Shown here: in pieces, positions 742-43,564 of the stretch
How positions within the stretch are numbered: position 1 is the first letter of the stretch
Layout: every line of letters begins with the position of its first letter
Source: Patescibacteria group bacterium
GTDB taxonomy: Bacteria > Patescibacteriota > Microgenomatia > UBA8517
Assembly (NCBI GenBank): GCA_036381415.1
Contig: DASVCV010000001.1
Span: 1,411 to 65,410 of the forward strand
Length of the DNA stretch: 64,000 nucleotides
Direction of reading: 5' to 3'
The notes under the pieces: generated by a model
The model's database searches: none
Seen by the model: only the letters and a program-made list of their open reading frames with translations
What the model was told of the DNA's origin: nothing
Made by a program: the position numbers and the translations under genes

Positions 742-1227
742 TTAGAAGTTTAAATCAGCACAGGAAACATAAACTTGTGCTTGGGTTGCTGACTTGTGTA
801 CATTTACAGCAAGCTTTCCTAATGCTTTTAATTTGTCAAAAGTCGTATCAAGAGTTGTTTGGGAAGTTCCATTTACTGGGGACTTTAAAGGAAACTTAAT
901 TGCTCCTGGGTTTGGACAACTACCTAAGTGGATATGAGCTGGCTGAGAAACTCCAGCTGGTGCTCCAGTTAAATTAAGGCTCACCAATATTTTTCCATCT
1001 ACTTCTTTAAGAACTGCGGTTCCTTTTTCATTAGAACCGTTTTGGGCATCAAGGTTTACAGTAAGGGTTTTAAGTCCTGGGACAAAAGAAGAGTTAATTT
1101 TATTTGATCCATATGAGAAAAGAGCAAATGCACCAACAAGAAGGGCTGCCATGGCAGCTAGCATCATGAGATTTATATCTGCCATCTGACGCTTTGAGTG
1201 GTGTACTTTTTTTGATCTTTTTGCCAT
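742..1227 (-). CDS. membrane-anchored extracytoplasmic protein, CHRD-domain-like (AHIHLG motif)
   Basis: N-terminal TM anchor. The HIHxGxC motif is reminiscent of CHRD or Cu/Zn-SOD-like folds. Function call is weak. Confidence 0.35.
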   Translation of the reverse strand: MAKRSKKVHHSKRQMADINLMMLAAMAALLVGAFALFSYGSNKINSSFVPGLKTLTVNLDAQNGSNEKGTAVLKEVDGKILVSLNLTGAPAGVSQPAHIHLGSCPNPGAIKFPLKSPVNGTSQTTLDTTFDKLKALGKLAVNVHKSATQAQVYVSCADLNF

Positions 1228-1324: not shown

Positions 1325-2509
1325 ATGTTAGGAAAACTTTTAGTTATTATTCTTCTTGTTCTTTTACTGGCAGGGGGTATTGCAGGATTTATCTTTTACA
1401 GAAAAAACTTTTCAGGAATCTGGCCGGCTGTTAATCCTCCTAGTTCTGATATTACCCAGGCAATTAATACTGCTACAAATAATCCAGGAGAAAATAATAG
1501 TAATTTCCCTTTACAAATACCAGCTAATATGACATTAACTATCTTTGCAAAAGATCTGGTTGCACCCAGAGTGATGGTAAGAGATCAAAGTGGAAACATA
1601 TTAGTCAGCATTACTTCAGAAGGGAAAGTTGTTGGCATATCAGCAGATGGTAGCAAAAAAACTACTATTGTGAGTGGATTAACTCAGCCACACGGTCTTG
1701 CTTTTCTTTGCCACAACCAGTGTTCACTCTATATTGCAGAAACCAATCAGGTTAACTCATATGATTATGATGCAACTTCAATGAGTGTTTCTAACAAAAA
1801 GAAAATACTTGATCTATCAGGAGGAGGATTTCATTTTACAAGAACTATCCTTTTTAACAACAAAAACCAGCTTTTGGTTTCTATCGGATCTGACTGCAAT
1901 GTTTGTGATGAAAAAAACCCTCAAAGAGCAGCAATTTGGATTGCAGATTCTGATGGAAGCAATTTTAGACCTTATGCAACTGGACTTCGTAATTCTGTTT
2001 TTATGGAAGCAAATCCTAATAATGGTGAAGTGTGGGCAACGGAGATGGGAAGGGACTATTTAGGAGATGATTTGCCTCCTGATGAAATTAATATAATTAA
2101 TGATGGAAAAAATTATGGGTGGCCTAGGTGCTATGGAAAAGGAAACCATGATACAAATTTTGATCCAAAAGGAGCTATAGATTCCTGCAACGAAACTGAG
2201 CCTTCTTTTATAGACTTACCAGCACACTCTGCTCCTTTGGGGTTAGCTTTTTGGCAAAATTCTTTACTTGTTTCATTCCATGGTTCTTGGAATAGAAGCA
2301 CTCCAACAGGATATAAAGTTGTTAAAATAACAGGAGACTGCATTACAAAAAGTGATTCCAAGGCATCTTGTAAAATTGAAGACTTTATAACTGGTTGGCT
2401 AAAACCTGGAGGAGCTGTAGGACGACCAGTTGATTTATTAGTAGATGGAAAAAAAATATTTATATCAGATGATAAGTCAGGAGTTATATATTTACTAACT
2501 CAAAAATAA
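1325..2509 (+). CDS. PQQ-dependent sugar dehydrogenase-like beta-propeller (SGL / YliI / sGDH family), membrane-anchored
   Basis: N-terminal TM. GKNYGWP motif and DDLPPDEINII block typical of the soluble aldose/glucose dehydrogenase family. Confidence 0.55.
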   Translation: MLGKLLVIILLVLLLAGGIAGFIFYRKNFSGIWPAVNPPSSDITQAINTATNNPGENNSNFPLQIPANMTLTIFAKDLVAPRVMVRDQSGNILVSITSEGKVVGISADGSKKTTIVSGLTQPHGLAFLCHNQCSLYIAETNQVNSYDYDATSMSVSNKKKILDLSGGGFHFTRTILFNNKNQLLVSIGSDCNVCDEKNPQRAAIWIADSDGSNFRPYATGLRNSVFMEANPNNGEVWATEMGRDYLGDDLPPDEINIINDGKNYGWPRCYGKGNHDTNFDPKGAIDSCNETEPSFIDLPAHSAPLGLAFWQNSLLVSFHGSWNRSTPTGYKVVKITGDCITKSDSKASCKIEDFITGWLKPGGAVGRPVDLLVDGKKIFISDDKSGVIYLLTQK

Positions 2510-2533: not shown

Positions 2534-2965
2534 TTGCTAGATAACATAAGAAGAAATCCTTTAATACTTGGTGCAATTGCAGTTTTTCTTGCACTTGTTG
2601 GAATTGTGTCAGTATTTATAAGTAGAAATGCTGGACCTTTTATTTCACCACAGAATGCTGGGAATACAAAAATTGAGACTCAGCCGGGAACTACTAATCC
2701 CAACAACACTATAAGCGCCAAGAATACAGTTGACATTAAAAATTTTTCATTTAGCATTTCCACTTTGACTGTAAAAAAGGGGGATACAGTAACTTGGACA
2801 AATAGCGACAGTTCGGTTCACACTGCAACAGCAGATGATGGGACTTTTGATACAGGAAGTATTAATCCGGGAAGCAGTCAAACAGTAACATTTACCAAGA
2901 GTGGAACTTATACCTATCATTGCTCTGTGCATCCCATGATGAAGGGGACTATTGTAGTCCAGTAA
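2534..2965 (+). CDS. cupredoxin (plastocyanin/amicyanin-like type 1 blue copper protein), membrane-anchored; TTG start
   Basis: Type-1 copper ligand pattern H...YHCSVHPMMKG (His-Cys-His-Met) at the C-terminus. N-terminal TM helix. Confidence 0.75.
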   Translation: MLDNIRRNPLILGAIAVFLALVGIVSVFISRNAGPFISPQNAGNTKIETQPGTTNPNNTISAKNTVDIKNFSFSISTLTVKKGDTVTWTNSDSSVHTATADDGTFDTGSINPGSSQTVTFTKSGTYTYHCSVHPMMKGTIVVQ

Positions 2966-32206: not shown

Positions 32207-32629
32207 TCAAGAAGCAGACTCAGATTTACCCTTTAATTTATTAAGAAGCAATCCAAGAGTAAAGACGGCAATCATAATTATCTGGCAGCCAATGCAGACT
32301 GGACAAACTACATAAAGCTGGAATAATTCTACATATGCAAGGTAAAGACAGAATAAAAGACCAAAGGTTGCCATTACCAAAAGAAGCTTTTTATTTTTAA
32401 TTACAGCTGCTATGAAAATAACAATGTAGCCAACAAGCCCAATTAAAGGAGTTGGAATGCCAAAGGTTTTAGATACTACACCTGATATTACTGCATTGCA
32501 GTTTATTGTGCTATTTATATTACACGGCTGAAATGCAGGATGAAAAAACTGTTCCCAAAGAAGAAAGAGTGCTAGAAATATACCTGCAAGCGACAATATC
32601 TTTACCCAGAAAAACATTTTTCTTTCCAT
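32207..32629 (-). CDS. VKOR-family membrane thiol oxidoreductase (paralog)
   Basis: Loop Cys pair CNINSTINC, then FGIPTPLIGLVGY, then a CPVC CxxC in the last TM. Confidence 0.5.
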   Translation of the reverse strand: MERKMFFWVKILSLAGIFLALFLLWEQFFHPAFQPCNINSTINCNAVISGVVSKTFGIPTPLIGLVGYIVIFIAAVIKNKKLLLVMATFGLLFCLYLAYVELFQLYVVCPVCIGCQIIMIAVFTLGLLLNKLKGKSESAS

Positions 32630-32722
32630 ATCATTTATATAGTAGTTCCCTTAGATAGAAGAGTCAATATTGGAAGTGTTAATTATTTATTAAATAGGAG
32701 AAGAATAAGTTATAATTATAAA

Positions 32723-33256
32723 ATGCTTGAAACTGCTACTTTAGGAGGAGGCTGCTTCTGGTGTACTGAGGCTATTTTTAAAAGACTTAAGGGGGTTGAA
32801 TCAGTAGTAAGCGGATATGCAGGAGGAGAAAAAGAAAATCCAACCTATCAGGAAGTCTCTAGCGGGAAAACTGGATACATAGAAAGCATCCAAATTAAAT
32901 TTGATCCTTCTACTATTAGCTATGAACATATACTGGATATTTTTTGGGCAACACATGATCCAACAAGTAAGGATAAGCAGGGAGCAGATGTGGGAAGCCA
33001 ATATAGATCTGTAATCTTTTACCATAACGAAGAACAAAGAAAAAAAGCACAGGAATCAATGGAAAAAATTCAAGGTGCAGTAACTCAAATAACAGGTTTC
33101 AAAAATTTCTACACAGCAGAAGAATATCACCAAAATTTTTATGATAAAAATAAATCAACCAATATGTACTGTTCACTTGTCATTGATCCTAAAATTAAAA
33201 AACTTTTAGATAAATTTGGTAAAGATGTAAAAGAAGAATATAAAGAGACTAGTTAA
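32723..33256 (+). CDS. msrA: peptide methionine-S-sulfoxide reductase MsrA
   Basis: GGGCFWC active-site motif at the N-terminus. Confidence 0.9.
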   Translation: MLETATLGGGCFWCTEAIFKRLKGVESVVSGYAGGEKENPTYQEVSSGKTGYIESIQIKFDPSTISYEHILDIFWATHDPTSKDKQGADVGSQYRSVIFYHNEEQRKKAQESMEKIQGAVTQITGFKNFYTAEEYHQNFYDKNKSTNMYCSLVIDPKIKKLLDKFGKDVKEEYKETS

Positions 33257-34022
33257 CTTCAAGTTTCGTAAATAACTTATCAATATCTTTTCCTGAGGCT
33301 TCCCAAAGTTCATTAAATTTTGGTACATAATCTTTTAAGTGAGGATATCCTGATGCTGACTGTTTTGTAGTTGCTTTCCCCCATTCATCGCCTGATAAAA
33401 CTACTATATTGAAAATTTCCGACAGTTCCCATAATGGTATTTGAAATTTTCCTTCAAGTTTTTCTTCCATTTCTCTTTCTAATGTATTTGTCATGTCAGG
33501 CAAATATCTTTTTCTAACATAATCATAGAAAATAAAGTGGAGCAATTCATGAGATGCGATTCTTATTCCTCTTTCAGTGGTATCAGATGAAAACTGGAAT
33601 GTTTTGGTATTTAAGTACCTGGGATAAGGAGGGCTTATGGTTAAATATCCTTTATACTCACCTTCCGGCCAAACCATATCTTTAAAAATTTTACCTGCAA
33701 CTTTAAAAAATTGGGGTGAGTAATCAATCCATTCTTTATTTATTTTTTCCACTAAGTTATCTAAATCTTGAGCATGTTCCTGATAATAGCTGTGAACATA
33801 GTCCTTAAGTTTTTCTAACCTATCTTCAGGGTCAAGCTTTTCATAACCCATTAGCTGCGGGTGTGTTTTGGGAAGCATTTCTTTAAAATTAGCACCCCCT
33901 CTTCTTTTTTCGTGAGTTAGAAATTTGTCTAATTTTATTACATCCAATTCTTCGTTAAGAAGAAATTCTACTTTTGGAAAATCACTGGTTGGTTTTTCTT
34001 TACTATTTCCTGAGTCTTCCAT
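33249..34022 (-). CDS. hypothetical protein with HExxH motif (possible zinc metallopeptidase)
   Basis: IASHELLHFIF motif. Overlaps the msrA 3' end by 8 nt. Confidence 0.4.
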   Translation of the reverse strand: MEDSGNSKEKPTSDFPKVEFLLNEELDVIKLDKFLTHEKRRGGANFKEMLPKTHPQLMGYEKLDPEDRLEKLKDYVHSYYQEHAQDLDNLVEKINKEWIDYSPQFFKVAGKIFKDMVWPEGEYKGYLTISPPYPRYLNTKTFQFSSDTTERGIRIASHELLHFIFYDYVRKRYLPDMTNTLEREMEEKLEGKFQIPLWELSEIFNIVVLSGDEWGKATTKQSASGYPHLKDYVPKFNELWEASGKDIDKLFTKLEVN

Positions 34023-34062
34023 CTGTATTATTTTACACTACATTAACTGATATAATTAAAAA

Positions 34063-34449
34063 ATGAAAGTTGATGATTTGAAAAAGAAATTGACAAAAGA
34101 GCAATACAATGTCTGTTTTCTTAAAGGAACAGAACCTCCTTTTTCAGGTAAATATACAAATAACCATGAAGAAGGAATGTATGAATGTGTTGTATGCGGT
34201 ACTCCCCTTTTTTCATCCAACTCAAAGTTTGATTCAAAAACCGGCTGGCCTTCATTTGATAAACCAGTAGTAAATGAAAACATTGACTTTAGCGAAGATA
34301 GCTCAATGGGAATGAGAAGAATTGAAGTAATGTGCAAAAAGTGCGGCTCCCACTTAGGACATGTGTTTGATGATGGACCAACAAAAACAGGAAAAAGATT
34401 CTGCATTAATTCACTTTCACTTAACTTCGTAGCTAAGAAAAAGGAATAG
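34063..34449 (+). CDS. msrB: peptide methionine-R-sulfoxide reductase MsrB
   Basis: CVVCGTPLF...CKKCGSHLGHVF zinc and catalytic motifs. Confidence 0.9.
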   Translation: MKVDDLKKKLTKEQYNVCFLKGTEPPFSGKYTNNHEEGMYECVVCGTPLFSSNSKFDSKTGWPSFDKPVVNENIDFSEDSSMGMRRIEVMCKKCGSHLGHVFDDGPTKTGKRFCINSLSLNFVAKKKE

Positions 34450-34498
34450 AAAAAAGTTTCTCTTGAGTTGGTTGACAGATAATGCTAGAGTTATTTTA

Positions 34499-34717
34499 AT
34501 GACTAAACAAATTGCACTTCTACTTATTTTAGGAATGTCTGTCTGTGGAGTACTCTTCTCGGGATATCTTTCATACAGAGAAATTTTTGGATCAGGCGGA
34601 TGCAAGAGTGGCAGCTGCAAGAATAAGATAATGAGAGTGCCTGTATGCGTGTATGGACTTATTATGTATTTAGTTGTCTTTATGCTTGCACTTCTTGGCA
34701 CACAGGCACTTTATTAA
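34499..34717 (+). CDS. small 2-TM membrane protein resembling the N-terminal half of a VKOR core
   Basis: SGYLSYREIFGSGGCKSGSCKN...RVPVCVYGLIMY matches the VKOR TM1-loop(Cys pair)-TM2 pattern. It lacks the CxxC TM. ATG at 34499; the ORF track starts at an upstream TTG at 34463. Confidence 0.35.
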   Translation: MTKQIALLLILGMSVCGVLFSGYLSYREIFGSGGCKSGSCKNKIMRVPVCVYGLIMYLVVFMLALLGTQALY

Positions 34718-34723
34718 TCTTTC

Positions 34724-35173
34724 TTATTTAGCCGGGCTGGGTGAGGGCCCCGGACTTCCAAACATACGAATTACAGGGTTAATCTGTATGTTTTGAGCAG
34801 TCACGCTTCCATCAGGATTTGTACTTCCAAAAACTGCAACTTTTGTTCCTGTAGCTAGGTCTTTTGTTTGTGCAGGATCTGTTTTTTCTACAGTAGTATT
34901 TCCTGACAAAAATACTATTTTTGTACTTCCATCACTCATTTTTACCGTAATGCTTTTGTCATCTGCACTTATTACTTCACCTGATACTGGCCTTAGGGCC
35001 TGAAAATTTCCATTAGCATTCCCGCCAAATCTGACTCTTTGTTGACCAGGTATAAACTGAGTGTTTACTCCCTGAACTTTCCCCTGCTGGAACTTAGTTC
35101 CACCAAAGAAACCTACTCCTAGTCCAACTATTAAGAAAACTGCAGGTATTAAATACTTTAAATATTTCTTCAT
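34724..35173 (-). CDS. secreted/anchored hypothetical protein at the end of the efflux operon
   Basis: Signal/TM sequence, Gly/Pro/Ser-rich tail. Confidence 0.4.
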   Translation of the reverse strand: MKKYLKYLIPAVFLIVGLGVGFFGGTKFQQGKVQGVNTQFIPGQQRVRFGGNANGNFQALRPVSGEVISADDKSITVKMSDGSTKIVFLSGNTTVEKTDPAQTKDLATGTKVAVFGSTNPDGSVTAQNIQINPVIRMFGSPGPSPSPAK

Positions 35174-35188
35174 ATATAATCACCCCCT

Positions 35189-36412
35189 TTATTCATATCT
35201 TAGTGCTTCTATAGGTTGTAAATTGGCTGCACGTCTTGCTGGATACCATCCAAAAAGAATTCCGATTCCACCTGAAACTATGATTGCAACAAGAATAGAC
35301 TGAAGAGAAAGTGTAAATGGAAGATTAATTAAATTTGATATTAAATAAGATGCAGCAATACCAATTATCATTCCAATTACTCCTCCTGCAACTGTAAGAA
35401 TGATAGATTCAACTAAAAACTGAGTAATGATGGACTTCTTTTTAGCACCAAGTGCTTTTCTTAAGCCAATTTCTCTTGTTCTTTCTGTTACTGTAACAAG
35501 CATTATATTCATGATTCCAATGCCACCTACAAGAAGTGAAATTGCAGCAATTCCTGATAACAGTGCAGTAAAAGTGCCAGTTATTGCTGAAGCTGCTCCT
35601 AGGATGTCATTTTGGGAAAAAATGGTAAAGTCTGCAAGAGCAGGATCTGATAGTTTGTGCTTATTTAGCAGATAGTATCCAACCTCATCCTGGGCCTGGG
35701 TCATTACATCTTCACTCTTTGCTTCTACTGAAATGGAAGTTACATAATCCACTCCAAAAAGCTGTTTTTGAGCAGTAGTAAGCGGGACATAAACAATATC
35801 GTCCTGATTTTGGAAACCAGATCCACCTTTTGAAGCTGTAATACCTATTATTCTAAAGGATTGGCCATTAATTCTTACAGGCTCTCCTATTGGGTTTGCC
35901 CCGTCTCCAAATAAGTTAGTAACCACAGTTGGTCCAAGTACTGCAACTTTTGTCATACTTGCTACATCTCTACTTGTGATGAAAGATCCTTGGGATATTT
36001 CCATCTTTCTTACTTCAGAATAAGCAGGAGTTGCACCTATTACCTGAGTGTTGGTGTTTGCTTTGCTGGTTGTAACCTGTGTTCTTCTTGAAACTTCAGG
36101 AGATACATTTTTGACTGTTGTTATATCAGGTGCTGTCAAAATTCCTAGAGCATCTGAGTAAGTAAGAGTTGTTGCTCCGCCTGCAGCTCCTCTAACAAAT
36201 CCTGAGCTAATTGCACCTGGAATAACTGTTAAAAGGTTTGATCCTAATGACTGAATTTGAGAAGTAACAGCTGCCTGGGAAGACTGCCCTAAGGAAACTA
36301 ATGCAATGACGCTTCCAATTCCAATAACAATACCAAGAGTGGCAAGGCCGGTTCGCAATTTGTTGTGAGTGAGAGTACTTACTGCTTCACTTATTAGTTC
36401 ACGGATGTCCAT
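35189..36412 (-). CDS. ABC transporter permease, MacB/FtsX family
   Basis: Four-TM FtsX-like permease with a large periplasmic domain. 1-nt overlap with the ATPase gene. Confidence 0.8.
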   Translation of the reverse strand: MDIRELISEAVSTLTHNKLRTGLATLGIVIGIGSVIALVSLGQSSQAAVTSQIQSLGSNLLTVIPGAISSGFVRGAAGGATTLTYSDALGILTAPDITTVKNVSPEVSRRTQVTTSKANTNTQVIGATPAYSEVRKMEISQGSFITSRDVASMTKVAVLGPTVVTNLFGDGANPIGEPVRINGQSFRIIGITASKGGSGFQNQDDIVYVPLTTAQKQLFGVDYVTSISVEAKSEDVMTQAQDEVGYYLLNKHKLSDPALADFTIFSQNDILGAASAITGTFTALLSGIAAISLLVGGIGIMNIMLVTVTERTREIGLRKALGAKKKSIITQFLVESIILTVAGGVIGMIIGIAASYLISNLINLPFTLSLQSILVAIIVSGGIGILFGWYPARRAANLQPIEALRYE

Positions 36413-37128
36413 TACTTTTTAGCCTTTCTATTTAAATTTATTTTTCTTTGTCTGTGGCCATTTCCATCTTTAACGATTTTGCCGTCTTTGACATGAATAA
36501 TTCTTTTGGCGTGCTCGGCAATATCAGGCTCATGAGTGATCATTACAATAGTATGTCCCTCTTCATTTAGCTTTTGAAAGATTGCCATAACTTCTTCAGC
36601 CTGAGCTGAGGCAATATTTCCAGTTGGTTCATCAGCAAGAATTATGGCTGGATCCATTACAAGAGAACGGGCAATGGCAACTCTTTGCTGCTGCCCGCCT
36701 GAAAGCTGGCTTGGGGTATGGTCCATTCTGTCCCCTAGACCAACCATTTTTAAATACTTTGCTGCAACCTTTTCTCTTTTGTCTTTGGAAATGCCTCCAT
36801 AGATCATGGGGAGGATTACATTTTTAATTGCAGAAGTTCTAGGAAGAAGGTTAAATGCTTGAAATATAAATCCTATTTTTTTATTTCTAATATCAGCAAG
36901 CTCATCATCTTTGAGATTGCCTATATTCTGTCCATCTAAAATATATTTTCCAGAAGTTGGCAAATCAAGAGCTCCAATAATGTGCATTAGTGTGGATTTG
37001 CCACTTCCTGAGGGGCCCATTATGGCAACGAACTCACCTTTTTTAATGTTAAAGGAGACGTCATCTAAGGCAACTGTAGTCACCTCATCATTTTTGTAGA
37101 TTTTAGACAGATGAGTAATTTGTATCAT
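36412..37128 (-). CDS. ABC transporter ATP-binding protein (MacB/LolD-type)
   Basis: GPSGSGKST Walker [16 protein letters not shown] signature. Confidence 0.9.
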
Positions 37129-37156
37129 ATGGCATTTTAATTGTTTAACTTACTAA

Positions 37157-38434
37157 CTAGTTACCTCTTCTTATAACTGCATTGCCTCCACCTGCCGGGG
37201 CTGTAGTTCTAAAAGTTGCCCCTCCTCCAAATCCTCCACCAAAGACAGAGGTTGTTCTAGTTCCAGTTGATGCCACTGTTCCTGTTACAACTTCATCTCC
37301 TTCCTGCAATCCTGAAACTATTTCTATCTGGGTGTCTGAAGACAAACCAGTTGTTACTTCAACATTTTCTACTTGGCCATTTTTAAGGACCCTGACAGTT
37401 GATGCTCCACTTTGTGTTTGAACTGCAGAAGTAGGAGCAATTAAGATATCGCTTTTAGTCTCAATTATTATGCTTGCAGTTGCAGACATGTTGGGAAGAA
37501 TTAGATCTGAAGTTGTGTCTAGGATAATAATTGCCGGATAACTTGTAACATTATTTGAAATTGCTCCAGTTTTATCTACTGCAACTACTTTGCCAGTAAA
37601 AGTCTTATCAGGAATACTGTCAAATGTGATTGTTGCCTTTTGACCTATTTTTACTTTAGGAACATCAATTTCAGCTAAGTTAAAGGAGAGAATGGGATTA
37701 GCTGCACTTTTAATGATGCCTAGCTTGGTTGAGGTTGAAGCACCAGTTGATGCAGAACTGGAATCTGACCCTACTATCATTCCTTCTACTAGACCGGTAT
37801 TTGAAAACACACCAGTTGATGGAGCAACAACAGAAGGTGAAGTTTGCTGATAGCTATACCAGGCGCTTGTTACAGATGATGTGGCTTGCGAAATCACATT
37901 TTGCTGGTTGTTATAATTTGCCTGGGCAGCCAGCCAAGTGGCATTTTCCTGGATATAGGTTGGGTCATCAGTTGCTAAATCACGGGCTACTGCATCATTG
38001 ATAAATTTTTGATTTGCTGCAAAGGAGGAAGCCTGCAGGGTATACAAATTTGTTTTGGCTGATTCCAAAGAATTTTTTGATGCAAGATAGGAAGACCAGG
38101 CCTGGGCATTTTTTTGCTGGCCTGACTGGTCTAGGGTGATATCTGCCAGTTTTTGGCCTGCACCTACTCTGGCCCCATCTTTTACATATACTTTTTTGAT
38201 TATTCCACTGGCTCCTGATGTAACTTCCATGACATTTGCAGTATTTACTTTTCCTGAAGCAGTAACTGAAGCAACAATTGTTCCTTTTTCAACTTGCGAT
38301 GTGGTGTACTGGGGAGCAGCTGTTTTTCCCCTACCTCTAAGAACTAAAAATAAGACTAAGAGAACAACCCCTAAAACAATTAGTCTTTTTTTATCTTTCC
38401 TAAACCACTTAATGATGCTTTTTAGCTTTGCCAT
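37157..38434 (-). CDS. efflux periplasmic adaptor subunit (MacA/HlyD family) with Gly-rich C-terminal tail
   Basis: N-terminal TM, coiled-coil, biotinyl-lipoyl-like and beta-barrel regions. C-terminal GGGFGGG tail. Confidence 0.7.
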   Translation of the reverse strand: MAKLKSIIKWFRKDKKRLIVLGVVLLVLFLVLRGRGKTAAPQYTTSQVEKGTIVASVTASGKVNTANVMEVTSGASGIIKKVYVKDGARVGAGQKLADITLDQSGQQKNAQAWSSYLASKNSLESAKTNLYTLQASSFAANQKFINDAVARDLATDDPTYIQENATWLAAQANYNNQQNVISQATSSVTSAWYSYQQTSPSVVAPSTGVFSNTGLVEGMIVGSDSSSASTGASTSTKLGIIKSAANPILSFNLAEIDVPKVKIGQKATITFDSIPDKTFTGKVVAVDKTGAISNNVTSYPAIIILDTTSDLILPNMSATASIIIETKSDILIAPTSAVQTQSGASTVRVLKNGQVENVEVTTGLSSDTQIEIVSGLQEGDEVVTGTVASTGTRTTSVFGGGFGGGATFRTTAPAGGGNAVIRRGN

Positions 38435-38477
38435 ACAGTGAAATAGTATACTCCATTTCTGAGAGGAAACTGAAAAA

Positions 38478-39497
38478 TTAGATTACTACTCTAAAGGTAG
38501 ATCCTTCGGATATTTTACTTTTAACTTCAATTTTTCCTTTATGAAGGTCTACTATATTTTTGGCAATAGATAATCCTAATCCATATCCATCTACTTTTTC
38601 TTTACTGCGTGATGCATCAGCTCTATAGAATCTGTCAAAAATATGCGGGATATCTTTTTCTCTCATCCCTCTTCCAAAATCTTTTACTTCAAGTACGGAG
38701 TGGTTTGCCGCTTTAGCAGTTCTTACAATAATTTTTGAATTATTACTGCTGTATTTGATTGCATTGTCTAAAAGTATGACTGTAAGTTCTACAAGAGATT
38801 CTTTGTTTGCTTCTACATATACCTTATTTAATTTTTTCTCGATTGTTATGTTTTTTGTATCTAGTAAAGGAAGGACCCTTTTAATTGCAATCGCTGCAAC
38901 ATCTGCAAGATTAACTTTAGAGAAAGGAAAAGAAGAAGAGTTGGCTTGATATTTATTTAAAGTAAGAAGGTAGTTGGCTAGGCTTTGGATTTTATTTACT
39001 TCCTCTAAGTTACTTGTGAGAACCTCTCTTGCCTCAACTATTTTCATTTTTTTGTCTCTTAAAGACACTTCAATTTCTGATTTTAAAGCAGAAAGAGGTG
39101 TGCGAAGTTCATGGGAAGCATCAGCAGTAAATCTTTTTTGCTCTTCCATCATATTTTCAATGGGAAGAAGTGTTCTTCCAGCCAAAAAGTAGCCTGCAAA
39201 TCCAGAAGCTGCAATAACTGCAAAGTCTATTGCTACAATTGCTAAGGCCAAACGTTTTTCTGATTCCTCAATGACTCTGTTTTCTTCATCTATCATTTGC
39301 TGAATCTGAGTGGGAGTTAAAGTAAAGATTGCTTCAGGAAAAAAAGGGAGATTTCCTGATCTTATTGTTTCTACTCTTACTATCCTCCCTATTTCATGGG
39401 AGAGCATGTTGTAAATTGCAAAGGAAAAAAGTCCTGTGATAACAGCAATAATTACAAGATACCAGAGAGTTAATCTAATACGGGCTGATCTAAACAT
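38478..39497 (-). CDS. two-component sensor histidine kinase
   Basis: Two TM helices, HisKA H-box DASHELRTPLS, HATPase_c. Confidence 0.85.
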   Translation of the reverse strand: MFRSARIRLTLWYLVIIAVITGLFSFAIYNMLSHEIGRIVRVETIRSGNLPFFPEAIFTLTPTQIQQMIDEENRVIEESEKRLALAIVAIDFAVIAASGFAGYFLAGRTLLPIENMMEEQKRFTADASHELRTPLSALKSEIEVSLRDKKMKIVEAREVLTSNLEEVNKIQSLANYLLTLNKYQANSSSFPFSKVNLADVAAIAIKRVLPLLDTKNITIEKKLNKVYVEANKESLVELTVILLDNAIKYSSNNSKIIVRTAKAANHSVLEVKDFGRGMREKDIPHIFDRFYRADASRSKEKVDGYGLGLSIAKNIVDLHKGKIEVKSKISEGSTFRVVI

Positions 39498-40178
39498 CTA
39501 TTTCCTACTTCCTAATCTATATCCAAACCCTCTTACAGTATGAATTAAAGGGACTGAATTTTTAAATGGTCCATCAATCTTTTTTCTTAAGTATCCAATA
39601 TATACTTCCACATTATTTGGAAGAATATCAGCATCATAGTCCCAAACATGGGAAATAATTTGCTCTTTGGTAACAGTCTCACCAGGATGCCTTAAAAGAT
39701 ATTCCAAAAGGGAAAACTCTTTACTGGAAAGATCAATATGTTTGCCTTCTCTTTTTACTTCATAATTTGTTGTATTTAAGCTTAAGCCATCTACTAAGAG
39801 AGTTGTTCCAAGTAAATCTTTTGGACGGCGTGTTAAGGCTCTTACTCTTGCCAGAAGTTCTTCAAAGGCAAAGGGTTTAACTAAATAGTCATCGGCTCCA
39901 GCATCCAAGCCTTCGACCCTATCTTCAATAGCTCCTTTAGCAGTAAGCATTAAAATTGGAGTGTGCTTTTTTTCTTTTCTTAATTTTTTACAAATCTCAA
40001 CACCATCAAGCCTAGGCAGCAGCCTATCTAAAATAATAGCGTCATATTCTTCTACCAAAGCAAGGTCTAGGCCGTCAGTGCCCTCGTATGCAACATCCAC
40101 TGCATAATGCTCCTGCATGAGTCCCTTCTTAATAGAATTTGCAATTTTGTGCTCGTCTTCAACTACTAATATTCTCAT
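39498..40178 (-). CDS. OmpR-family response regulator
   Basis: Receiver domain (ILVVEDE...D) plus winged-helix DNA-binding domain. Confidence 0.9.
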   Translation of the reverse strand: MRILVVEDEHKIANSIKKGLMQEHYAVDVAYEGTDGLDLALVEEYDAIILDRLLPRLDGVEICKKLRKEKKHTPILMLTAKGAIEDRVEGLDAGADDYLVKPFAFEELLARVRALTRRPKDLLGTTLLVDGLSLNTTNYEVKREGKHIDLSSKEFSLLEYLLRHPGETVTKEQIISHVWDYDADILPNNVEVYIGYLRKKIDGPFKNSVPLIHTVRGFGYRLGSRK

Positions 40179-40295
40179 GGGGTTTCTTCCTTTGAGGCTA
40201 TTATAACTTATTTAGACTGAGAGGCGGCTGAGAATGAGCTTTTTATTAAAAGTGGATTTTTCTATTTTTTATTTAATGCAATTATGTGTATATAC

Positions 40296-41570
40296 TTATA
40301 AAGAAAACTTTTCAAAATGGATATTTGAGTTAGGTACCCCTAGTGCAATCAGGTCTTTAGTTACTGCATCCATCATGGGTACTGGTCCACACATCATTAC
40401 TTCATAATCTTCTACATTTTTTACCAGTTTTTCTATCTTTTCTTTATTAAGATGTCCCACTTTTTGGGTAACTATGTAGTGAATAGGAAATTTATATTTA
40501 TTAGATAAACTACCAAGTTCTTTTTTGAAAACTATTTCATTTTCAGTCTTAGCACTGTAAAGAAGAATTATATTTTTACTGCCTGCCAATTCTTCTATTA
40601 AGCTTCTAATTGGAGTTATTCCAATTCCTCCTGCAATGAAGAGCACTTTGTCTTTTTTAATTCTTTTACTTGTAAAAGTTCCATATGGTCCATCAATTAT
40701 TACTTTTGTTCCTGGCTTAAGACTTGGAAGTTCACTGGTAAAGTCTCCACTATTTTTTGGAGTTATTCTAATTTTTCCATTTGCAACCTTTGAAAGAGAA
40801 AAAGGATGAGACTGGTACCAAAACTTTGGTGTTAGAAAATTAAACTTCATGAACTGTCCAGGATTTACATGGAATGATTCCATGTCTTTTCCTGTTATGT
40901 AGATGGATACTACACCTTCATTTTCTTTAACTACCCTATCAACATAAAATTCATGAGTATAGAATTCATATATTGGTTTTAGAATTCTAAAAATTAATAA
41001 GTTGCCAAACACAAAAGCATATAGAAGATACCAATAATAGGCAAAAATAGGCTGACCTAAGAAATCTTCACCTACCCTTAATTGGTGCCCCCATGCAAAA
41101 ACAACTGCTAAGTAAACAAAAATATGTACAAAATACCAGGCTTCATATTTAATCCTGTTTCTAACTATATAAATAGAAATGAAAATTATACTTAAAAATA
41201 AAATGGCTCCAATTAGAGCTTTGTTTACATCTTCAAAGTTATTAATAAGATCAAGAAACTGTGATGTGAAATTAACCTTAGTAATTTGTGCATACCCAAT
41301 TGTTATTAGTATTGGATGAAGAAGTATAAAAACACTGGATAAGTACCCATTTAAGTGGTGATATTTTGACAGCTTGTCTAGGCCAAAAGTCTTTTCCAAC
41401 CAAGCTGCCCTTCCCATTAGTAAAAACTGAAACAAAATGGAAAGGACAGCAAGAAGACCTGACAAACGTCCAAGAGCTAGATAGACACTGCCTCCTCCTG
41501 AGTTTTTCCACCAAAAGAATAAAACTATAAAGAGGTTTAGTGCTAGAAAAGCGTAAATTAGTTTCTTCAC
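40296..41570 (-). CDS. ferric-reductase-like transmembrane domain fused to FAD/NAD(P)-binding domain (NOX/FRE-type flavocytochrome)
   Basis: Six-TM ferric-reductase domain with His pairs. HPFSLSK FAD-binding and GGIGITP NAD(P)-binding motifs. Confidence 0.75.
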   Translation of the reverse strand: MKKLIYAFLALNLFIVLFFWWKNSGGGSVYLALGRLSGLLAVLSILFQFLLMGRAAWLEKTFGLDKLSKYHHLNGYLSSVFILLHPILITIGYAQITKVNFTSQFLDLINNFEDVNKALIGAILFLSIIFISIYIVRNRIKYEAWYFVHIFVYLAVVFAWGHQLRVGEDFLGQPIFAYYWYLLYAFVFGNLLIFRILKPIYEFYTHEFYVDRVVKENEGVVSIYITGKDMESFHVNPGQFMKFNFLTPKFWYQSHPFSLSKVANGKIRITPKNSGDFTSELPSLKPGTKVIIDGPYGTFTSKRIKKDKVLFIAGGIGITPIRSLIEELAGSKNIILLYSAKTENEIVFKKELGSLSNKYKFPIHYIVTQKVGHLNKEKIEKLVKNVEDYEVMMCGPVPMMDAVTKDLIALGVPNSNIHFEKFSL

Positions 41571-42037
41571 TCCACTATCAACGTTCCTTTCATGCCAAGA
41601 CGTCTATGATTACTTACACTGCAGTAATACTCAAATGACCCTGCCTTGTCTGCAACAAATTCAATAGTATCTGATTCACCATCAGGTATTGTTTTTGTTC
41701 TGACATTAAATTCATCAATTACAAAGTCGTGGACACCATTTGAATTATTGAAAATGATTTTTACAGTATCACCTTTTTTAACCCTAATTTCATTTGGTTT
41801 AAAAAAGAAATCGCCGCCTTCTACTGTAAAGGTCTGACTTGTACCTTGAGTTGTTGCTACTGGTTGTACAGTTGAATTTGGAGTTGCAGTTGGAAGGTCT
41901 GAATTTAAAGCTGTAGGATTCGTTTCAGTTGTAGTTGTATTTGAGTTAGAACTCATCCCATTAACTAAAATAAGTCCTCCTCCAACTAAAACTATAATTA
42001 CTATAGCTATTACTATATATAAAGTTTTTTTATTCAT
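41567..42037 (-). CDS. membrane-anchored cupredoxin (type 1 blue copper protein)
   Basis: TM anchor, Ser/Thr linker, H...YYCSVSNHRRLGM ligand set. Stop overlaps the FRE start by 4 nt. Confidence 0.7.
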   Translation of the reverse strand: MNKKTLYIVIAIVIIVLVGGGLILVNGMSSNSNTTTTETNPTALNSDLPTATPNSTVQPVATTQGTSQTFTVEGGDFFFKPNEIRVKKGDTVKIIFNNSNGVHDFVIDEFNVRTKTIPDGESDTIEFVADKAGSFEYYCSVSNHRRLGMKGTLIVE

Positions 42038-42124
42038 TTTTCACCTCCTTCCTATTGTAGTTTTTTTTGAAACCAAATTCTATATTATTTTTGAAAGCTT
42101 AGAATTAGCTGTGAAGTATTTTGC

Positions 42125-42162
42125 AATATCTGGCAACATCTGGATAAATTAGGTAATATCTG
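42125..42162 (+). promoter_or_regulatory. three phased direct repeats A[TC]ATCTGG (offsets 0, 10, 30 bp) immediately upstream of fic; candidate operator
   Basis: ATATCTGG at 42125, ACATCTGG at 42135, ATATCTGG at 42155. Spacings are multiples of about 10 bp. They end 13 bp before the fic start. Confidence 0.4.
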
Positions 42163-42174
42163 GTAAATTGAATT

Positions 42175-43155
42175 ATGATAATTCCTGGCAAGTATAGGCT
42201 TACACCAAGTGTTTCTTCTCTTTTGTCTTCTATTGAAGCAAGCAAGGTTGTAATTGACTCAATCACAATTCCACCTGAAATAGAAAACAATATCAGGCGT
42301 CAATCAACGCTTAGAAGCTCTGTCTACTCAGCTAGGATTGAGGGAAATGAGCTAACACTAGATAGTTTAGATTCTTCAAGCAAAAACCAGCAGAAAGTAG
42401 AAATATTTAACATTTTGAAAGCTTTAAATTTGATAAATAAAAAGTCTAAAAAGGACATTACATTACAAGATATTGTAGAACTCCACAAAATCACTCTTGA
42501 TAGCCTTCATCCTGATGCTGGTAAAGTTAGAAACCAGGCTGAAGCTATTTTTAACTCAGCTGGAATTGCAATCTATATGCCTCCCCCACCAAGACTTGTA
42601 CCATCATTTTTAAATAAACTTTTAAAGTATGTGAATAGCGACAGAGAAAGATTTGTCCCTGTTAAAGCAGCTTTGGCTCACTTTAGCTTTGAAAAAATTC
42701 ACCCTTTTGAAGAAGGAAATGGAAGAGTAGGAAGAATACTCACTCAAAAGATATTAAAACAAGGAGGATATGGAATGAAAGGGCTTTTATCTTTAGAGGA
42801 ATATCTTGATAATCACAGATCAGAATACTACAGAAGTTTGGAAGAACCTGAAAAGGATTTAACTGACTATCTTCATTTCATGCTTACTGCAATTGATGAA
42901 ACTGCAAAAAAGGCAAAAGATATGGTACTTCAAAAACAAAAGGCGGAAGTAACTGATTACTTACTTCCCAGAAGGGCTGAAATTCTAAACATTATCAAAG
43001 AGCAAAGAATGGTTAACTTTGATCAATTAAGAAGGAGATTTCTTGCCGTAAATGAAAGAACTTTAAGATATGATCTTAAAAAACTTCAAGATCAGGGGTT
43101 TATAAGAAAACTTGGATCAACTAAGGGAGTTTATTATCAAACTTCAAAGGAATAA
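42175..43155 (+). CDS. fic: Fic/Doc-family protein (class II, with N-terminal inhibitory motif) and C-terminal winged helix
   Basis: HPFEEGNGRVGR Fic motif. N-terminal SARIEGN matches the (S/T)xxxE(G/N) auto-inhibition motif. Confidence 0.85.
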   Translation: MIIPGKYRLTPSVSSLLSSIEASKVVIDSITIPPEIENNIRRQSTLRSSVYSARIEGNELTLDSLDSSSKNQQKVEIFNILKALNLINKKSKKDITLQDIVELHKITLDSLHPDAGKVRNQAEAIFNSAGIAIYMPPPPRLVPSFLNKLLKYVNSDRERFVPVKAALAHFSFEKIHPFEEGNGRVGRILTQKILKQGGYGMKGLLSLEEYLDNHRSEYYRSLEEPEKDLTDYLHFMLTAIDETAKKAKDMVLQKQKAEVTDYLLPRRAEILNIIKEQRMVNFDQLRRRFLAVNERTLRYDLKKLQDQGFIRKLGSTKGVYYQTSKE

Positions 43156-43228: not shown

Positions 43229-43564
43229 GTGACAAAGTACAAAGAATATATTGATAAGATGCTTGAGGAAAACAAGGTTCTTTTTGACTCCTTTAAAGAA
43301 ATCCATGACCAATATGGACTAAACCCTGACAAGTTTCAGGCTCAATTTAATGAAATGGGTGAAAAAGTAATGCTTGTTGTAAGGCACTATGAAGATAAGT
43401 TATGTAAAAGAAGTGAAGGAAGCGGCTATGCAAGCTTTACTGGAACACTAGCTGAGAAATTCCAGGTGGAATTAAGAAAAGTGTTTCCAATGATTGATAA
43501 TATTGGAATAAAAGTAAGCAGCGAAGACAATATTTTTGTTTTGAAAAAGATCAATCTAAACTAA
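43229..43564 (+). CDS. hypothetical helical protein downstream of fic (GTG start)
   Basis: ORF only. Confidence 0.35.
   Translation: MTKYKEYIDKMLEENKVLFDSFKEIHDQYGLNPDKFQAQFNEMGEKVMLVVRHYEDKLCKRSEGSGYASFTGTLAEKFQVELRKVFPMIDNIGIKVSSEDNIFVLKKINLN

What the first reader, a model, noticed from the sequence alone, without database searches (positions are those of the whole stretch)
40296..42037. NOX/ferric-reductase flavocytochrome translationally coupled to a membrane-anchored cupredoxin within a two-component-regulated efflux operon
The cupredoxin stop overlaps the FRE-domain gene start by 4 nt. The FRE protein carries cytoplasmic FAD/NAD(P)H domains and a six-TM di-haem-type core that moves electrons outward. 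The co-encoded extracytoplasmic blue copper protein is the obvious acceptor. This would be an NAD(P)H to cupredoxin trans-membrane electron shuttle, an uncommon pairing. It sits directly upstream of an OmpR-type response regulator and histidine kinase, a MacAB-type pump and a secreted protein, all on the minus strand (34724-42037).
Basis: partly seen in the sequence, partly recalled or inferred. Interest (0 to 1): 0.55.

Follow-up and report, generated by a model that had tools for sequence, protein, structure and literature searches.

The report
Membrane electron exporter with copper partner
A tiny-genome (Patescibacteria/CPR) bacterium encodes a membrane enzyme that takes electrons from NAD(P)H inside the cell, next to an outward-facing blue copper protein that most likely receives them. 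The pair recurs in many CPR lineages and could be a missing link in how these bacteria dispose of electrons.

Summary
A 156-aa N-terminally anchored type-1 cupredoxin (41567-42037, -) overlaps by 4 nt (GTGA) a 424-aa SpNOX-like flavocytochrome (40296-41570, -). The flavocytochrome has six TM helices, four invariant haem histidines (H71/H85, H149/H162) and FAD and NAD(P)H motifs.

The pairing is not chance. Cupredoxin lies directly upstream, on the same strand, in 9 of 26 informative CPR species genomes (P~3e-14). It is also there in 4 of the 6 closest relatives checked. It was absent from the 51 Chloroflexota/Actinomycetota/other loci.

In those phyla the orthologous reductase is followed by an FMN-binding protein plus ApbE. 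This is the published "MsrQ-like" flavinylation system. Other CPR loci instead carry a secreted cytochrome b5 or rubrerythrin. The neighbour is therefore a swappable extracytoplasmic redox partner, which supports NAD(P)H -> FAD -> two haems -> cupredoxin.

The terminal acceptor is unknown. No NirK or oxidase lies nearby. Metal transporters sit next to some relatives, which keeps a metal-reduction reading alive.

The OmpR-type two-component system and the MacAB/DUF5666 pump do recur with the reductase and with the cupredoxin, but co-transcription is unproven. Conserved 10-bp phased repeats upstream of the cupredoxin mark a regulated promoter.

Verdict: new variant of a known kind.

The parts
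41567..42037 (-). Membrane-anchored type-1 (blue) copper protein. TM anchor at residues 7-25, disordered S/T/N/P linker at about 27-65, cupredoxin domain at 66-156.
   Evidence: Pfam Cupredoxin_1 and Copper-bind. Cu ligands H103, C139 and M149 are invariant and H144 is nearly invariant in 26 sequences, in a C-x4-H-x4-M loop. AF2 domain pLDDT about 98 and linker below 65. Foldseek hits to B. anthracis Cupredoxin_1, nitrosocyanin, the N-terminal cupredoxin domain of Hyphomicrobium NirK, and auracyanin. Single hydrophobic segment 7-25.
40296..41570 (-). SpNOX-like flavocytochrome: six TM helices with two b-haem sites, plus a cytoplasmic FAD/NAD(P)H dehydrogenase domain.
   Evidence: Pfam Ferric_reduct, FAD_binding_8 and NAD_binding_1. 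Invariant H71-x13-H85 and H149-x12-H162. HPFS 255-258, six of the seven residues 314-320 (GGIGITP) invariant and G314 >=90% conserved, CGP 394-396 and F422. Best PDB sequence hit is SpNOX at 8e-23. AF2 pLDDT 85.8. Foldseek to SpNOX 8qt6 with TM 0.78/0.83.
42123..42166 (-). Four phased 10-bp direct repeats (TTrCCnnATn), about 42 bp upstream of a conserved TATAGAAT (42077-42084). Candidate regulator-binding site of the cupredoxin-FRE promoter.
   Evidence: All three exact CCAGATRTT sites in the 64-kb window lie here, spaced 20 and 10 bp. The element is nearly invariant in five loci whose cupredoxins are only about 71-81% identical over the aligned domain (58% overall for the most distant) and whose 5'UTRs diverge.
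39498..40178 (-). OmpR-family response regulator, closest to the CopR/CusR/RppA/HprR subfamily.
   Evidence: Pfam Response_reg and Trans_reg_C. NCBIfam TIGR01387 at 239 bits (cut-off 279) and RppA at 236 (cut-off 250), both below cut-off. A 63%-identical RR lies upstream of the cupredoxin-FRE pair in WWE3 locus L161.
38478..39497 (-). Sensor histidine kinase with two TM segments and a roughly 55-aa outer loop.
   Evidence: Pfam HisKA and HATPase_c. TM segments 10-28 and 83-101. NCBIfam matches cover only the kinase core.
37157..38434 (-). HlyD/MacA-type membrane-fusion (adaptor) protein.
   Evidence: Pfam HlyD_D23, HlyD_3. NCBIfam RND_mfp at 97 bits, above its cut-off of 94.9, and MacA at 5e-31.
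36412..37128 (-). MacB-type ABC ATPase.
   Evidence: Pfam ABC_tran 9e-35. Best NCBIfam match is the MacB N-terminal half at 4e-80.
35189..36412 (-). MacB-type permease (MacB_PCD + FtsX).
   Evidence: Pfam MacB_PCD 5e-47 and FtsX 1e-23.
34724..35173 (-). N-terminally anchored DUF5666 protein. A recurrent last gene of these MacAB operons, often directly next to the cupredoxin in other CPR loci.
   Evidence: Pfam DUF5666. Found adjacent to cupredoxin and/or MacAB in L092, L093, L107, L108, L119, L142, L149 and L150.
42175..43155 (+). Divergently transcribed Fic-domain protein with a C-terminal DeoR-like winged helix. Alternative candidate binder of the repeat element.
   Evidence: Pfam Fic 5e-20 and HTH_DeoR 3e-5. 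63-68% identical homologues lie in the same divergent position in L169-L171.

Best explanation
The two overlapping genes encode a two-protein transmembrane electron exporter.

The 424-aa protein oxidises NAD(P)H on its cytoplasmic FAD domain. It passes single electrons through an inner b-haem (H71/H149) and an outer b-haem (H85/H162) across the membrane.

The co-translated 156-aa cupredoxin is held at the outer face by an N-terminal anchor and a flexible linker of about 40 residues. Its type-1 copper (H103, C139, H144, M149) accepts the electron from the exposed outer haem. It then carries it to an acceptor that is not identified.

The high potential expected of a type-1 copper points to acceptors such as a copper nitrite reductase, another copper oxidoreductase or oxygen chemistry. 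Ferric chelates are less likely acceptors.

Shown here: gene structure, domain and ligand conservation, fold, predicted topology, conserved adjacency, and partner swapping within one orthologous family.

Inferred: that the haems and copper are actually bound, that electrons pass from haem to copper, and what lies downstream.

Expression is probably controlled from a promoter carrying four phased 10-bp repeats. The adjacent OmpR-type regulator and the divergent Fic-wHTH protein are the candidate binders.
For: (1) All NOX/FRD cofactor signatures are invariant. The model superposes on full-length SpNOX with TM 0.78-0.83.

(2) The cupredoxin has a complete, conserved type-1 ligand set and a confident cupredoxin fold.

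(3) Hydropathy and charge distribution put the copper domain outside and the FAD/NAD domain inside (loop charges read from the sequence).

(4) Tight same-strand adjacency, from -11 to +58 nt, occurs in 9 of 26 CPR species genomes (P~3e-14). It also occurs in 8 tight metagenome pairs, plus L105 with a 203-nt gap, and in relatives P0002, P0004, P0011 and P0077. The flanks are otherwise unrelated.

(5) On the FRE tree the CPR clade carries cupredoxin, and less often signal-bearing cytochrome b5 or rubrerythrin. The Chloroflexota/Actinomycetota clade carries FMN_bind and ApbE. The latter is the published MsrQ-like extracytosolic electron-transfer system (PMC8238504).

(6) Cupredoxin also pairs with haem-only FRD proteins (L111) and with a split FRD + dehydrogenase version (L104).

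(7) For SpNOX, the outer haem is solvent-exposed and cytochrome c is reduced directly. The authors propose that an unknown protein acceptor exists (PMC11564096).
Against: There is no biochemical evidence of any kind.

Only about a third of CPR FRE genes have the cupredoxin. Only 8 of 69 informative loci of the cupredoxin family have a full-length FRE directly downstream, about 14 of 69 (roughly 20%) if looser, convergent, split and haem-only FRD neighbours are counted. Neither partner is therefore obligatory.

The cupredoxin is about as often attached to MacAB/DUF5666 or RR-HK genes without any FRE.

Close relatives place ZIP (L165) or Nramp (L167) transporters beside FRE. That is the classic signature of assimilatory metal reduction.

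No plausible terminal acceptor (NirK, multicopper oxidase, haem-copper oxidase) was found within 5-10 kb of any pair or in the 64-kb window.

No complex model could be computed.
Confidence: 0.6

Rival explanations
1. Assimilatory metal reductase. FRE itself reduces extracellular Fe(III) or Cu(II) at its exposed outer haem, for uptake by ZIP/Nramp-type transporters. The cupredoxin acts on the metal, for example by handling Cu(I)/Cu(II) or by ferroxidase-like gating as in EfeO/FtrB. It would not be the electron acceptor of FRE.
For: The closest relative (72% identity) has cupredoxin-FRE followed directly by a ZIP transporter. Another relative has FRE followed by an unknown ORF and then Nramp. 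ZupT-like ORFs recur near cupredoxins in 3 metagenome loci (read from the sequence, not scanned). Meheust et al. found VIT1 in 153 MsrQ-like clusters and suggested iron assimilation. Eukaryotic FRE/FRO/STEAP enzymes are ferric and cupric reductases (PMC3591440).
Against: The window has no metal transporter beside the pair. The ligand set is that of an electron-transfer type-1 site, with no His/Met-rich metal-handling region. No Ftr1/EfeU-type permease was seen in any locus. SpNOX ferric reductase activity is very low compared with its protein acceptors. This reading does not explain why FMN-binding protein, cytochrome b5 and rubrerythrin occupy the equivalent position in orthologous loci.
Confidence: 0.15
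2. Copper or envelope-stress defence module. A CopRS/CusRS/HprRS-like two-component system induces a CopI-like copper-tolerance cupredoxin together with a MacAB-type exporter and DUF5666. FRE is an accessory that supplies reducing power or is merely co-regulated.
For: The RR's best NCBIfam matches are the heavy-metal RR subfamily, RppA, CusR and HprR. The cupredoxin partially matches CopI at 4e-9. S. pneumoniae CupA appears among the fold hits. Cupredoxin is directly attached to RR-HK (L135, L138) or to MFP-ABC-MacB-DUF5666 (L107, L092, L149) without FRE. The TCS and MacAB recur beside FRE across phyla. MsrA, MsrB and VKOR lie next to the cluster.
Against: All TCS and CopI matches are below the curated cut-offs. 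The CopI match covers residues 58-109 only. The kinase has only a roughly 55-aa outer loop with a single His and no Met or Cys, so it has no CusS/CopS-like sensor domain (sequence). No copper ATPase, CopZ or CsoR lies nearby. In most genomes the cupredoxin-FRE pair occurs without the TCS or pump.
Confidence: 0.15
3. Genuine NADPH oxidase. FRE reduces O2 to superoxide at the outer haem, as a weapon, as a signal, or as an O2 scavenger for an anaerobe. The cupredoxin is functionally independent, or merely deals with the product.
For: FRE is a full-length structural and sequence homologue of SpNOX, which consumes O2 and was first described as a superoxide producer.
Against: SpNOX lacks the eukaryotic O2-binding pocket, and its authors doubt that O2 is the physiological acceptor. 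Translational coupling and conserved adjacency to a redox protein are left unexplained, as is the partner swapping. Secreted rubrerythrin as an alternative partner suggests peroxide removal rather than ROS production.
Confidence: 0.1

Closest known systems
SpNOX (Streptococcus pneumoniae NOX-like flavocytochrome; PDB 8qq7, 8qt6)
   Same: Same single-chain architecture: six TM helices, two b-haems on H-x13-H and H-x12-H, an FAD/NAD(P)H domain, and a C-terminal aromatic residue third from the end. There are no regulatory domains. Sequence E about 1e-22 and TM-score 0.78-0.83. For SpNOX a protein acceptor is suspected but unknown.
   Different: Only about 24% identical. The CPR protein has a roughly 12-residue insertion in the outer C-loop that forms a short helix at 101-111. 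Here a candidate acceptor is encoded by the overlapping upstream gene.
'MsrQ-like' flavinylation-associated electron-transfer system (Meheust et al. 2021, eLife, PMC8238504)
   Same: Orthologous reductase (PF01794 + FAD + PF00175), 34-40% identical over its full length. It is co-encoded with a small signal-bearing extracytoplasmic redox protein and is often beside an OmpR-type TCS and a MacAB pump.
   Different: That system's partner is an ApbE-flavinylated FMN_bind protein encoded downstream. Here there is no FMN_bind and no ApbE. The partner is a copper protein encoded upstream, and it is found in CPR rather than in Actinomycetota/Chloroflexota.
MsrPQ (E. coli YedYZ) with HprRS
   Same: An FRD-family di-haem membrane protein delivers electrons to a co-encoded extracytoplasmic redox protein. 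The operon is controlled by a neighbouring CusR-like OmpR-family TCS. This comparison rests on established knowledge and; HprR is among the RR's better matches.
   Different: MsrQ has no FAD/NAD domain and draws on quinol or Fre. Its partner is a molybdoenzyme. No MsrP is present here.
Cupredoxin electron carriers of denitrifiers (pseudoazurin/azurin to NirK; tethered cupredoxin domain of Hyphomicrobium NirK)
   Same: Same fold and type-1 ligand set, with 35% identity to the tethered NirK domain. Single-cupredoxin 'pcy' proteins are proposed as NirK donors in Patescibacteria, with the upstream donor unidentified (PMC12931201).
   Different: Those carriers are reduced by cytochrome bc1 or c-type cytochromes. 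Here the proposed reductant is an NAD(P)H-driven flavocytochrome. No NirK was found near any pair.

Membership tests
NOX/FRE flavocytochromes of the FRD superfamily (SpNOX-like) | Six TM helices with four haem-ligating His, two on TM3 and two on TM5, spaced 13 and 12 | tested here: met
   H71-x13-H85 and H149-x12-H162 are invariant in 21 sequences. The AF2 model shows six TM helices.
NOX/FRE flavocytochromes of the FRD superfamily (SpNOX-like) | C-terminal FNR-like domain with the FAD motif HPF[ST], the NAD(P)H motif GxGxxP, CGP, and a C-terminal aromatic residue | tested here: met
   HPFS 255-258, six of the seven residues 314-320 (GGIGITP) invariant and G314 >=90% conserved, CGP 394-396 and F422 are conserved. 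Pfam FAD_binding_8 and NAD_binding_1.
NOX/FRE flavocytochromes of the FRD superfamily (SpNOX-like) | Overall fold equals that of a solved NOX | tested here: met
   Foldseek to SpNOX 8qt6: E 2.8e-19, TM 0.78/0.83 over 431 columns.
NOX/FRE flavocytochromes of the FRD superfamily (SpNOX-like) | NAD(P)H-dependent O2 reduction to superoxide | not testable with these tools
   An enzymatic property. It is disputed even for SpNOX.
MsrQ-like flavinylation-associated system (Meheust 2021) | A PF01794 membrane protein, usually with the PF00175 NAD domain | tested here: met
   The FRE is orthologous (34-40% identity) to those in FMN_bind/ApbE clusters.
MsrQ-like flavinylation-associated system (Meheust 2021) | FMN_bind (PF04205) substrate protein and ApbE flavin transferase in the same cluster | tested here: not met
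   Neither is present among the eight cluster genes scanned with Pfam or in the CPR-clade loci. Both are present in most loci of the Chloroflexota/Actinomycetota clade: at least one in 44 of 50, both in about 24.
Type-1 (blue) copper proteins / cupredoxins | Greek-key beta-sandwich cupredoxin fold | tested here: met
   AF2 pLDDT about 98 for residues 66-156. Foldseek hits to many cupredoxins at E 1e-9 to 1e-7.
Type-1 (blue) copper proteins / cupredoxins | His ... Cys-xn-His-xm-Met ligand set | tested here: met
   H103, C139 and M149 are invariant and H144 is at least 90% conserved. The loop is C-x4-H-x4-M and contains a single Cys, so it is not CuA.
Type-1 (blue) copper proteins / cupredoxins | Extracytoplasmic location | tested here: inconclusive
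   Predicted only. There is one N-terminal hydrophobic segment (7-25) after MNKK, followed by an uncharged S/T/N/P linker. No dedicated topology predictor or experiment was available.
Type-1 (blue) copper proteins / cupredoxins | Binds redox-active copper (~600-nm band, reversible potential) | not testable with these tools
   Requires spectroscopy.
Heavy-metal (CopRS/CusRS-type) two-component systems | RR and HK score above the curated subfamily cut-offs | tested here: not met
   RR TIGR01387 scores 239, below 279. HK TIGR01386 scores 146, below 293.
Heavy-metal (CopRS/CusRS-type) two-component systems | Periplasmic metal-binding sensor domain in the kinase | tested here: not met
   The outer loop is only about 55 aa (residues 29-82) with a single His and no Met or Cys. 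Profile matches cover only the kinase core.
MacAB-type ABC exporter with adaptor | ABC ATPase + MacB_PCD/FtsX permease + HlyD/MacA adaptor encoded together | tested here: met
   The substrate and any outer partner are unknown.
CopI copper-tolerance cuproprotein | Full-length match above cut-off, and a His/Met-rich extra copper region | tested here: not met
   NF051440 scores 36.5 bits against a cut-off of 280, and only residues 58-109 match. The linker is S/T/N/P-rich and has no His or Met cluster.

The most novel reading that the evidence does not exclude
The cupredoxin-FRE pair is a quinone- and bc1-independent mini respiratory chain of CPR bacteria. Cytoplasmic NAD(P)H would be re-oxidised by pushing electrons through two haems onto a tethered blue copper protein. 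That protein would then feed extracytoplasmic copper enzymes such as NirK, or possibly redox partners on the host-cell surface.

[quoted passage not shown] It would also identify a physiological protein acceptor for the bacterial NOX-like family, which the SpNOX structural work left open (PMC11564096).
Probability: 0.25. Interest if true: 0.8.

Novelty: new variant of a known kind. Interest (0 to 1): 0.6.

Why it matters
Two open questions would become directly testable.

(1) What is the physiological acceptor of bacterial NOX-like flavocytochromes? The SpNOX structure papers conclude that a protein acceptor may exist but name none. Here a candidate is encoded by the overlapping gene and is conserved across CPR classes.

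(2) How do CPR bacteria reduce their ubiquitous single-domain cupredoxins and re-oxidise NAD(P)H? They lack complex III and usually lack quinones.

More generally, the comparison shows one orthologous reductase with interchangeable extracytoplasmic partners: FMN-binding protein, cupredoxin, cytochrome b5 and rubrerythrin. That broadens the published MsrQ-like system into a modular NAD(P)H-driven electron-export platform.

If the metal-reduction rival is right instead, the find is more ordinary. It would be a reductive Fe/Cu uptake system.

Tried and rejected
- Terminal acceptor: I looked for NirK, a multicopper oxidase or a haem-copper oxidase. None was found among 106 neighbour ORFs of 19 paired loci. 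A cupredoxin-profile scan of all 80 window ORFs, plus Pfam on about 26 window ORFs, also found none.
- Extending beyond the window on its 137-kb contig: one look-up returned only a shorter duplicate contig, and the other protein was not on record.
- Copies of the promoter repeat upstream of the RR, adaptor or other genes: none better than 2-3 mismatches, and those lie inside coding sequence. There were none in more distant loci. The repeat therefore cannot yet be tied to the RR.
- Intrinsic terminator between FRE and the RR: none found. A sigma-70 scan gave fewer promoter-like sites than shuffles, so it is uninformative.
- Literature: searches for cupredoxin + ferric reductase/NOX, for CPR + plastocyanin/ferric reductase, and for DUF5666 found no description of this pairing and nothing useful on DUF5666. 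The FRD-superfamily survey does not mention cupredoxins.
- CuA or red-copper site: rejected. There is a single Cys and a His/Cys/His/Met set.
- Reverse electron flow (cupredoxin to NAD+): rejected on thermodynamic grounds. This is an inference, as it would run uphill by more than 0.5 V and against the membrane potential.
- Alternative genetic code (UGA = Gly): reading through the cupredoxin TGA adds only two codons before a TAA, so no fusion would result.
- Natural cupredoxin-FRE fusions could not be searched effectively with the available tools. Long 'FRE' ORFs in L016 and L029 carry no extra Pfam domain.
Full report
**What is there**

The window is identical to a contig of an NCBI metagenome-assembled 'Patescibacteria group bacterium'. 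P0001 and P0121 are 100% identical to the two proteins, on a 137-kb contig.

On the minus strand, a 156-aa ORF (41567-42037) ends in TGA. That stop overlaps the GTG start of a 424-aa ORF (40296-41570) by four bases, GTGA. The GTG start is credible. It is the first start codon of the frame, and 20 homologues align from residue 1 with a conserved MKK N-terminus. Relatives L165, L169, L170 and L090 show the same 4-nt overlap. A strong ribosome-binding site (AGGAAGGAGG) precedes the upstream gene.

**The reductase**

- Pfam finds Ferric_reduct, FAD_binding_8 and NAD_binding_1.
- In an alignment of 21 sequences at 48-72% identity, the invariant residues include H71 and H85 (13 apart) and H149 and H162 (12 apart). 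This is the NOX haem-ligand signature.
- Also invariant are HPFS (FAD), most of GGIGITP (NAD(P)H), CGP, and F422, third from the C-terminus.
- The best solved relative by sequence is the Streptococcus pneumoniae NOX-like protein SpNOX, at E about 1e-22 over residues 37-422.
- An AlphaFold2 model (mean pLDDT 85.8) has six TM helices followed by an FNR-like domain. It superposes on full-length SpNOX with TM-scores of 0.78/0.83.
- Loop charges follow the positive-inside rule: MKK at the N-terminus, K/R-rich 53-69 and 137-141, and acidic 92-117 and 163-176. The N-terminus and the dehydrogenase domain are therefore cytoplasmic, and H85/H162 hold the outer haem. This is read from the sequence together.

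**The cupredoxin**

- Pfam finds Cupredoxin_1 and Copper-bind.
- In 26 sequences, H103, C139 and M149 are invariant and H144 is nearly so, in a C-x4-H-x4-M loop with a single cysteine. This is a mononuclear type-1 site, not CuA and not the Glu-containing red site of nitrosocyanin.
- The model has a TM helix (3-20), a low-confidence Ser/Thr/Asn/Pro linker, and a cupredoxin domain with pLDDT about 98.
- That domain matches B. anthracis Cupredoxin_1, nitrosocyanin (40% identity), the tethered N-terminal cupredoxin of Hyphomicrobium NirK (35%) and auracyanin.
- One hydrophobic segment after MNKK, followed by an uncharged linker, predicts an N-in/C-out signal anchor. The copper domain should therefore hang outside on a tether of about 40 residues.

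**Is the pairing more than chance?**

A scan of one genome per species returned 80 loci encoding relatives of the reductase. An NJ tree splits them into a CPR clade and a Chloroflexota/Actinomycetota/Dormibacterota clade.

- In the CPR clade, a cupredoxin lies directly upstream on the same strand in 9 of 26 loci that have enough upstream sequence. The gaps are 5-58 nt. Only one other cupredoxin ORF occurs among 332 ORFs in these loci, giving a binomial P~3e-14.
- The carriers are labelled Peregrinibacteria, Paceibacterota, Saccharibacteria and Harrisonbacteria.
- Of six closer relatives looked up individually, four have the pair: 72% identity, WWE3 55%, Parcubacteria 54% and Roizmanbacteria 50%.
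- Starting instead from the cupredoxin, 69 informative metagenome loci were obtained. Eight have a full-length FRE tightly downstream and one (L105) has it after a 203-nt gap. One has a convergent FRE. One has a split version: cupredoxin, a haem-only FRD protein, and a separate FAD/NAD protein (L104). Three have a haem-only FRD protein.
- The genes flanking the pair are otherwise unrelated from locus to locus. This is the pattern of a mobile two-gene functional unit.

**Partner swapping**

In the non-CPR clade, none of 51 loci has a cupredoxin next to FRE. There the reductase is usually followed by an FMN_bind protein with an N-terminal signal or anchor, and by the flavin transferase ApbE. At least one of the two is present in 44 of the clade's 50 tree leaves.

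This is the 'MsrQ-like' extracytosolic electron-transfer system defined by Meheust et al. They proposed NAD(P)H as the donor and the flavinylated protein as the outer acceptor (PMC8238504).

Within the CPR clade, loci without cupredoxin sometimes carry other partners adjacent to FRE. These are a lipoprotein or anchored cytochrome b5 (L007, L017, L018) or a signal-peptide rubrerythrin (L003, L077).

One orthologous reductase is thus co-encoded with four different small extracytoplasmic redox proteins. The simplest reading is that the neighbour is the electron acceptor.

It also agrees with the SpNOX work. In SpNOX the outer haem is unusually solvent-exposed, cytochrome c is reduced directly, ferric reductase activity is very low, and the authors suggest that an unidentified protein acceptor exists (PMC11564096).

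**What happens to the electron next is not known**

- No NirK, multicopper oxidase or haem-copper oxidase lies near any pair, and none turned up among the window ORFs that were scanned.
- A type-1 copper is expected to be a poor reductant for ferric chelates and a good one for copper enzymes. This rests on established knowledge and was not tested here.
- A 2025 survey of Patescibacteria proposes that their single-domain 'plastocyanin' feeds NirK. It states that the protein reducing it is unidentified because complex III is missing (PMC12931201). The FRE described here is a candidate for that role.
- Against this, the closest relative has a ZIP transporter immediately after FRE, and another has Nramp two genes away. 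This echoes reductive metal uptake. Meheust et al. noted VIT1 in some MsrQ-like clusters.
- I therefore keep an assimilatory metal-reductase reading as the main rival.

**The surrounding genes**

Downstream on the same strand are an OmpR-family RR, an HK, a MacA-like adaptor, a MacB-type ATPase and permease, and an anchored DUF5666 protein. These are packed with gaps of 43 nt or less. A 117-nt gap without a recognisable terminator separates FRE from the RR, so co-transcription is possible but not shown.

The neighbourhood link is real:
- An RR-HK pair lies within 5 kb of FRE in 21 of the 51 non-CPR loci.
- MacAB, with or without DUF5666, lies beside FRE in several Chloroflexota and CPR loci. 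Examples are MFP-ABC-MacB-FRE (L166) and MFP-ABC-MacB-cupredoxin-FRE (L118).
- The cupredoxin alone is attached to MacAB-DUF5666 (L107, L092, L093, L149) or to RR-HK (L135, L138).
- WWE3 locus L161 has a 63%-identical RR and an HK upstream of cupredoxin-FRE.

The RR is closest to the CopR/CusR/RppA/HprR group, but below every curated cut-off. The kinase has only a roughly 55-aa outer loop with no metal-binding features. Copper sensing is therefore not supported. What the pump exports is unknown.

**A regulated promoter**

Upstream of the cupredoxin, four 10-bp direct repeats (TTrCCnnATn, 42123-42166) sit about 42 bp from a TATAGAAT box. All three exact CCAGATRTT sites of the 64-kb window are in this stretch.

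The 44-bp element is almost invariant in five loci, although their cupredoxins are only about 71-81% identical over the aligned domain (58% overall for the most distant) and the adjacent 5'UTRs diverge. This is a phylogenetic footprint of a protein-binding site.

Helically phased direct repeats are typical of OmpR/PhoB-family regulators (established knowledge). However, a Fic-domain protein with a C-terminal winged helix is divergently encoded 9 nt from the repeats. It is conserved in that position in three of the loci. No further copy of the repeat precedes the RR or pump genes. The binder is unresolved.

**Verdict**

The NAD(P)H-to-cupredoxin path is the best explanation (confidence about 0.6) but remains an inference. 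The 'operon' and 'uncommon' parts need correcting.
- I found no description of this pairing in four literature searches, in the FRD-superfamily survey, or in two papers on the MsrQ-like flavinylation system.
- It is best classed as a new variant of a known kind: an MsrQ-like/SpNOX-like electron exporter whose outer partner is a blue copper protein, characteristic of CPR bacteria.

Noticed in passing
window 42123-42166 (- strand), with the TATAGAAT box at 42077-42084: Four phased 10-bp direct repeats lie between the Fic-wHTH gene and the cupredoxin. They are almost invariant in five related loci despite divergent 5'UTRs. This is a candidate operator for the OmpR-type RR or for the Fic-wHTH protein.
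   Followed up: partly
window 1325-2509 (+) and 2534-2965 (+): A second membrane-anchored cupredoxin (C-x2-H-x2-M loop) lies 24 nt downstream of an anchored GSDH/PQQ-type sugar dehydrogenase homologue. This may be a second extracytoplasmic pair, with a dehydrogenase as the electron donor to a cupredoxin.
   Followed up: partly
window 32207-34717: A cluster of oxidative-damage and thiol-redox genes lies next to the pump operon: VKOR (32207-32629, -), MsrA (32723-33256, +), MsrB (34063-34449, +) and a short VKOR-like ORF (34463-34717, +). MsrB also lies near FRE or the cupredoxin in L023, L081, L106 and L144.
   Followed up: partly
L003 4249-4914, L077 4335-4994; L007 4820-5197, L018 4544-4993: In CPR and Kiritimatiellae loci lacking the cupredoxin, FRE is adjacent to a signal-peptide-bearing rubrerythrin or to a lipoprotein or anchored cytochrome b5. 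Secreted rubrerythrin fed by an NAD(P)H-driven membrane reductase would be an extracytoplasmic peroxidase system.
   Followed up: partly
L104 1620-3548; L111 5001-6092; L163 4506-7042: Variant architectures were seen: cupredoxin + haem-only FRD protein + separate FAD/NAD protein (a split FRE); cupredoxin + haem-only FRD protein; and cupredoxin + FRE + an extra haem-only FRD protein.
   Followed up: partly
L165 1949-2698; L167 8578-9828: A ZIP transporter lies directly after cupredoxin-FRE in the closest relative, and Nramp lies two genes after FRE in another. These hint at reductive metal uptake.
   Followed up: partly
window 42175-43155 (+) and 43229-43564 (+): A Fic + winged-helix protein is followed by a 111-aa ORF with no family match. 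Both are conserved divergently from the cupredoxin in L170. The 111-aa ORF recurs near cupredoxins in five metagenome loci.
   Followed up: partly
L166 2344-9323: An ECF sigma factor is followed by two unknown ORFs and then MFP-ABC-MacB-FRE on one strand. FRE begins 25 nt after the pump permease and there is no cupredoxin.
   Followed up: no
window 176-1227: A PKD-domain protein (176-706, +) and a weak CHRD-domain anchored protein (742-1227, -) lie upstream of the GSDH-cupredoxin pair.
   Followed up: no
L004 (record labelled 'uncultured Gammaproteobacteria'): This locus has the CPR-type MacAB-DUF5666 ... cupredoxin-FRE arrangement and 47% FRE identity to the window. The taxonomic label of this MAG is probably wrong.
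   Followed up: no
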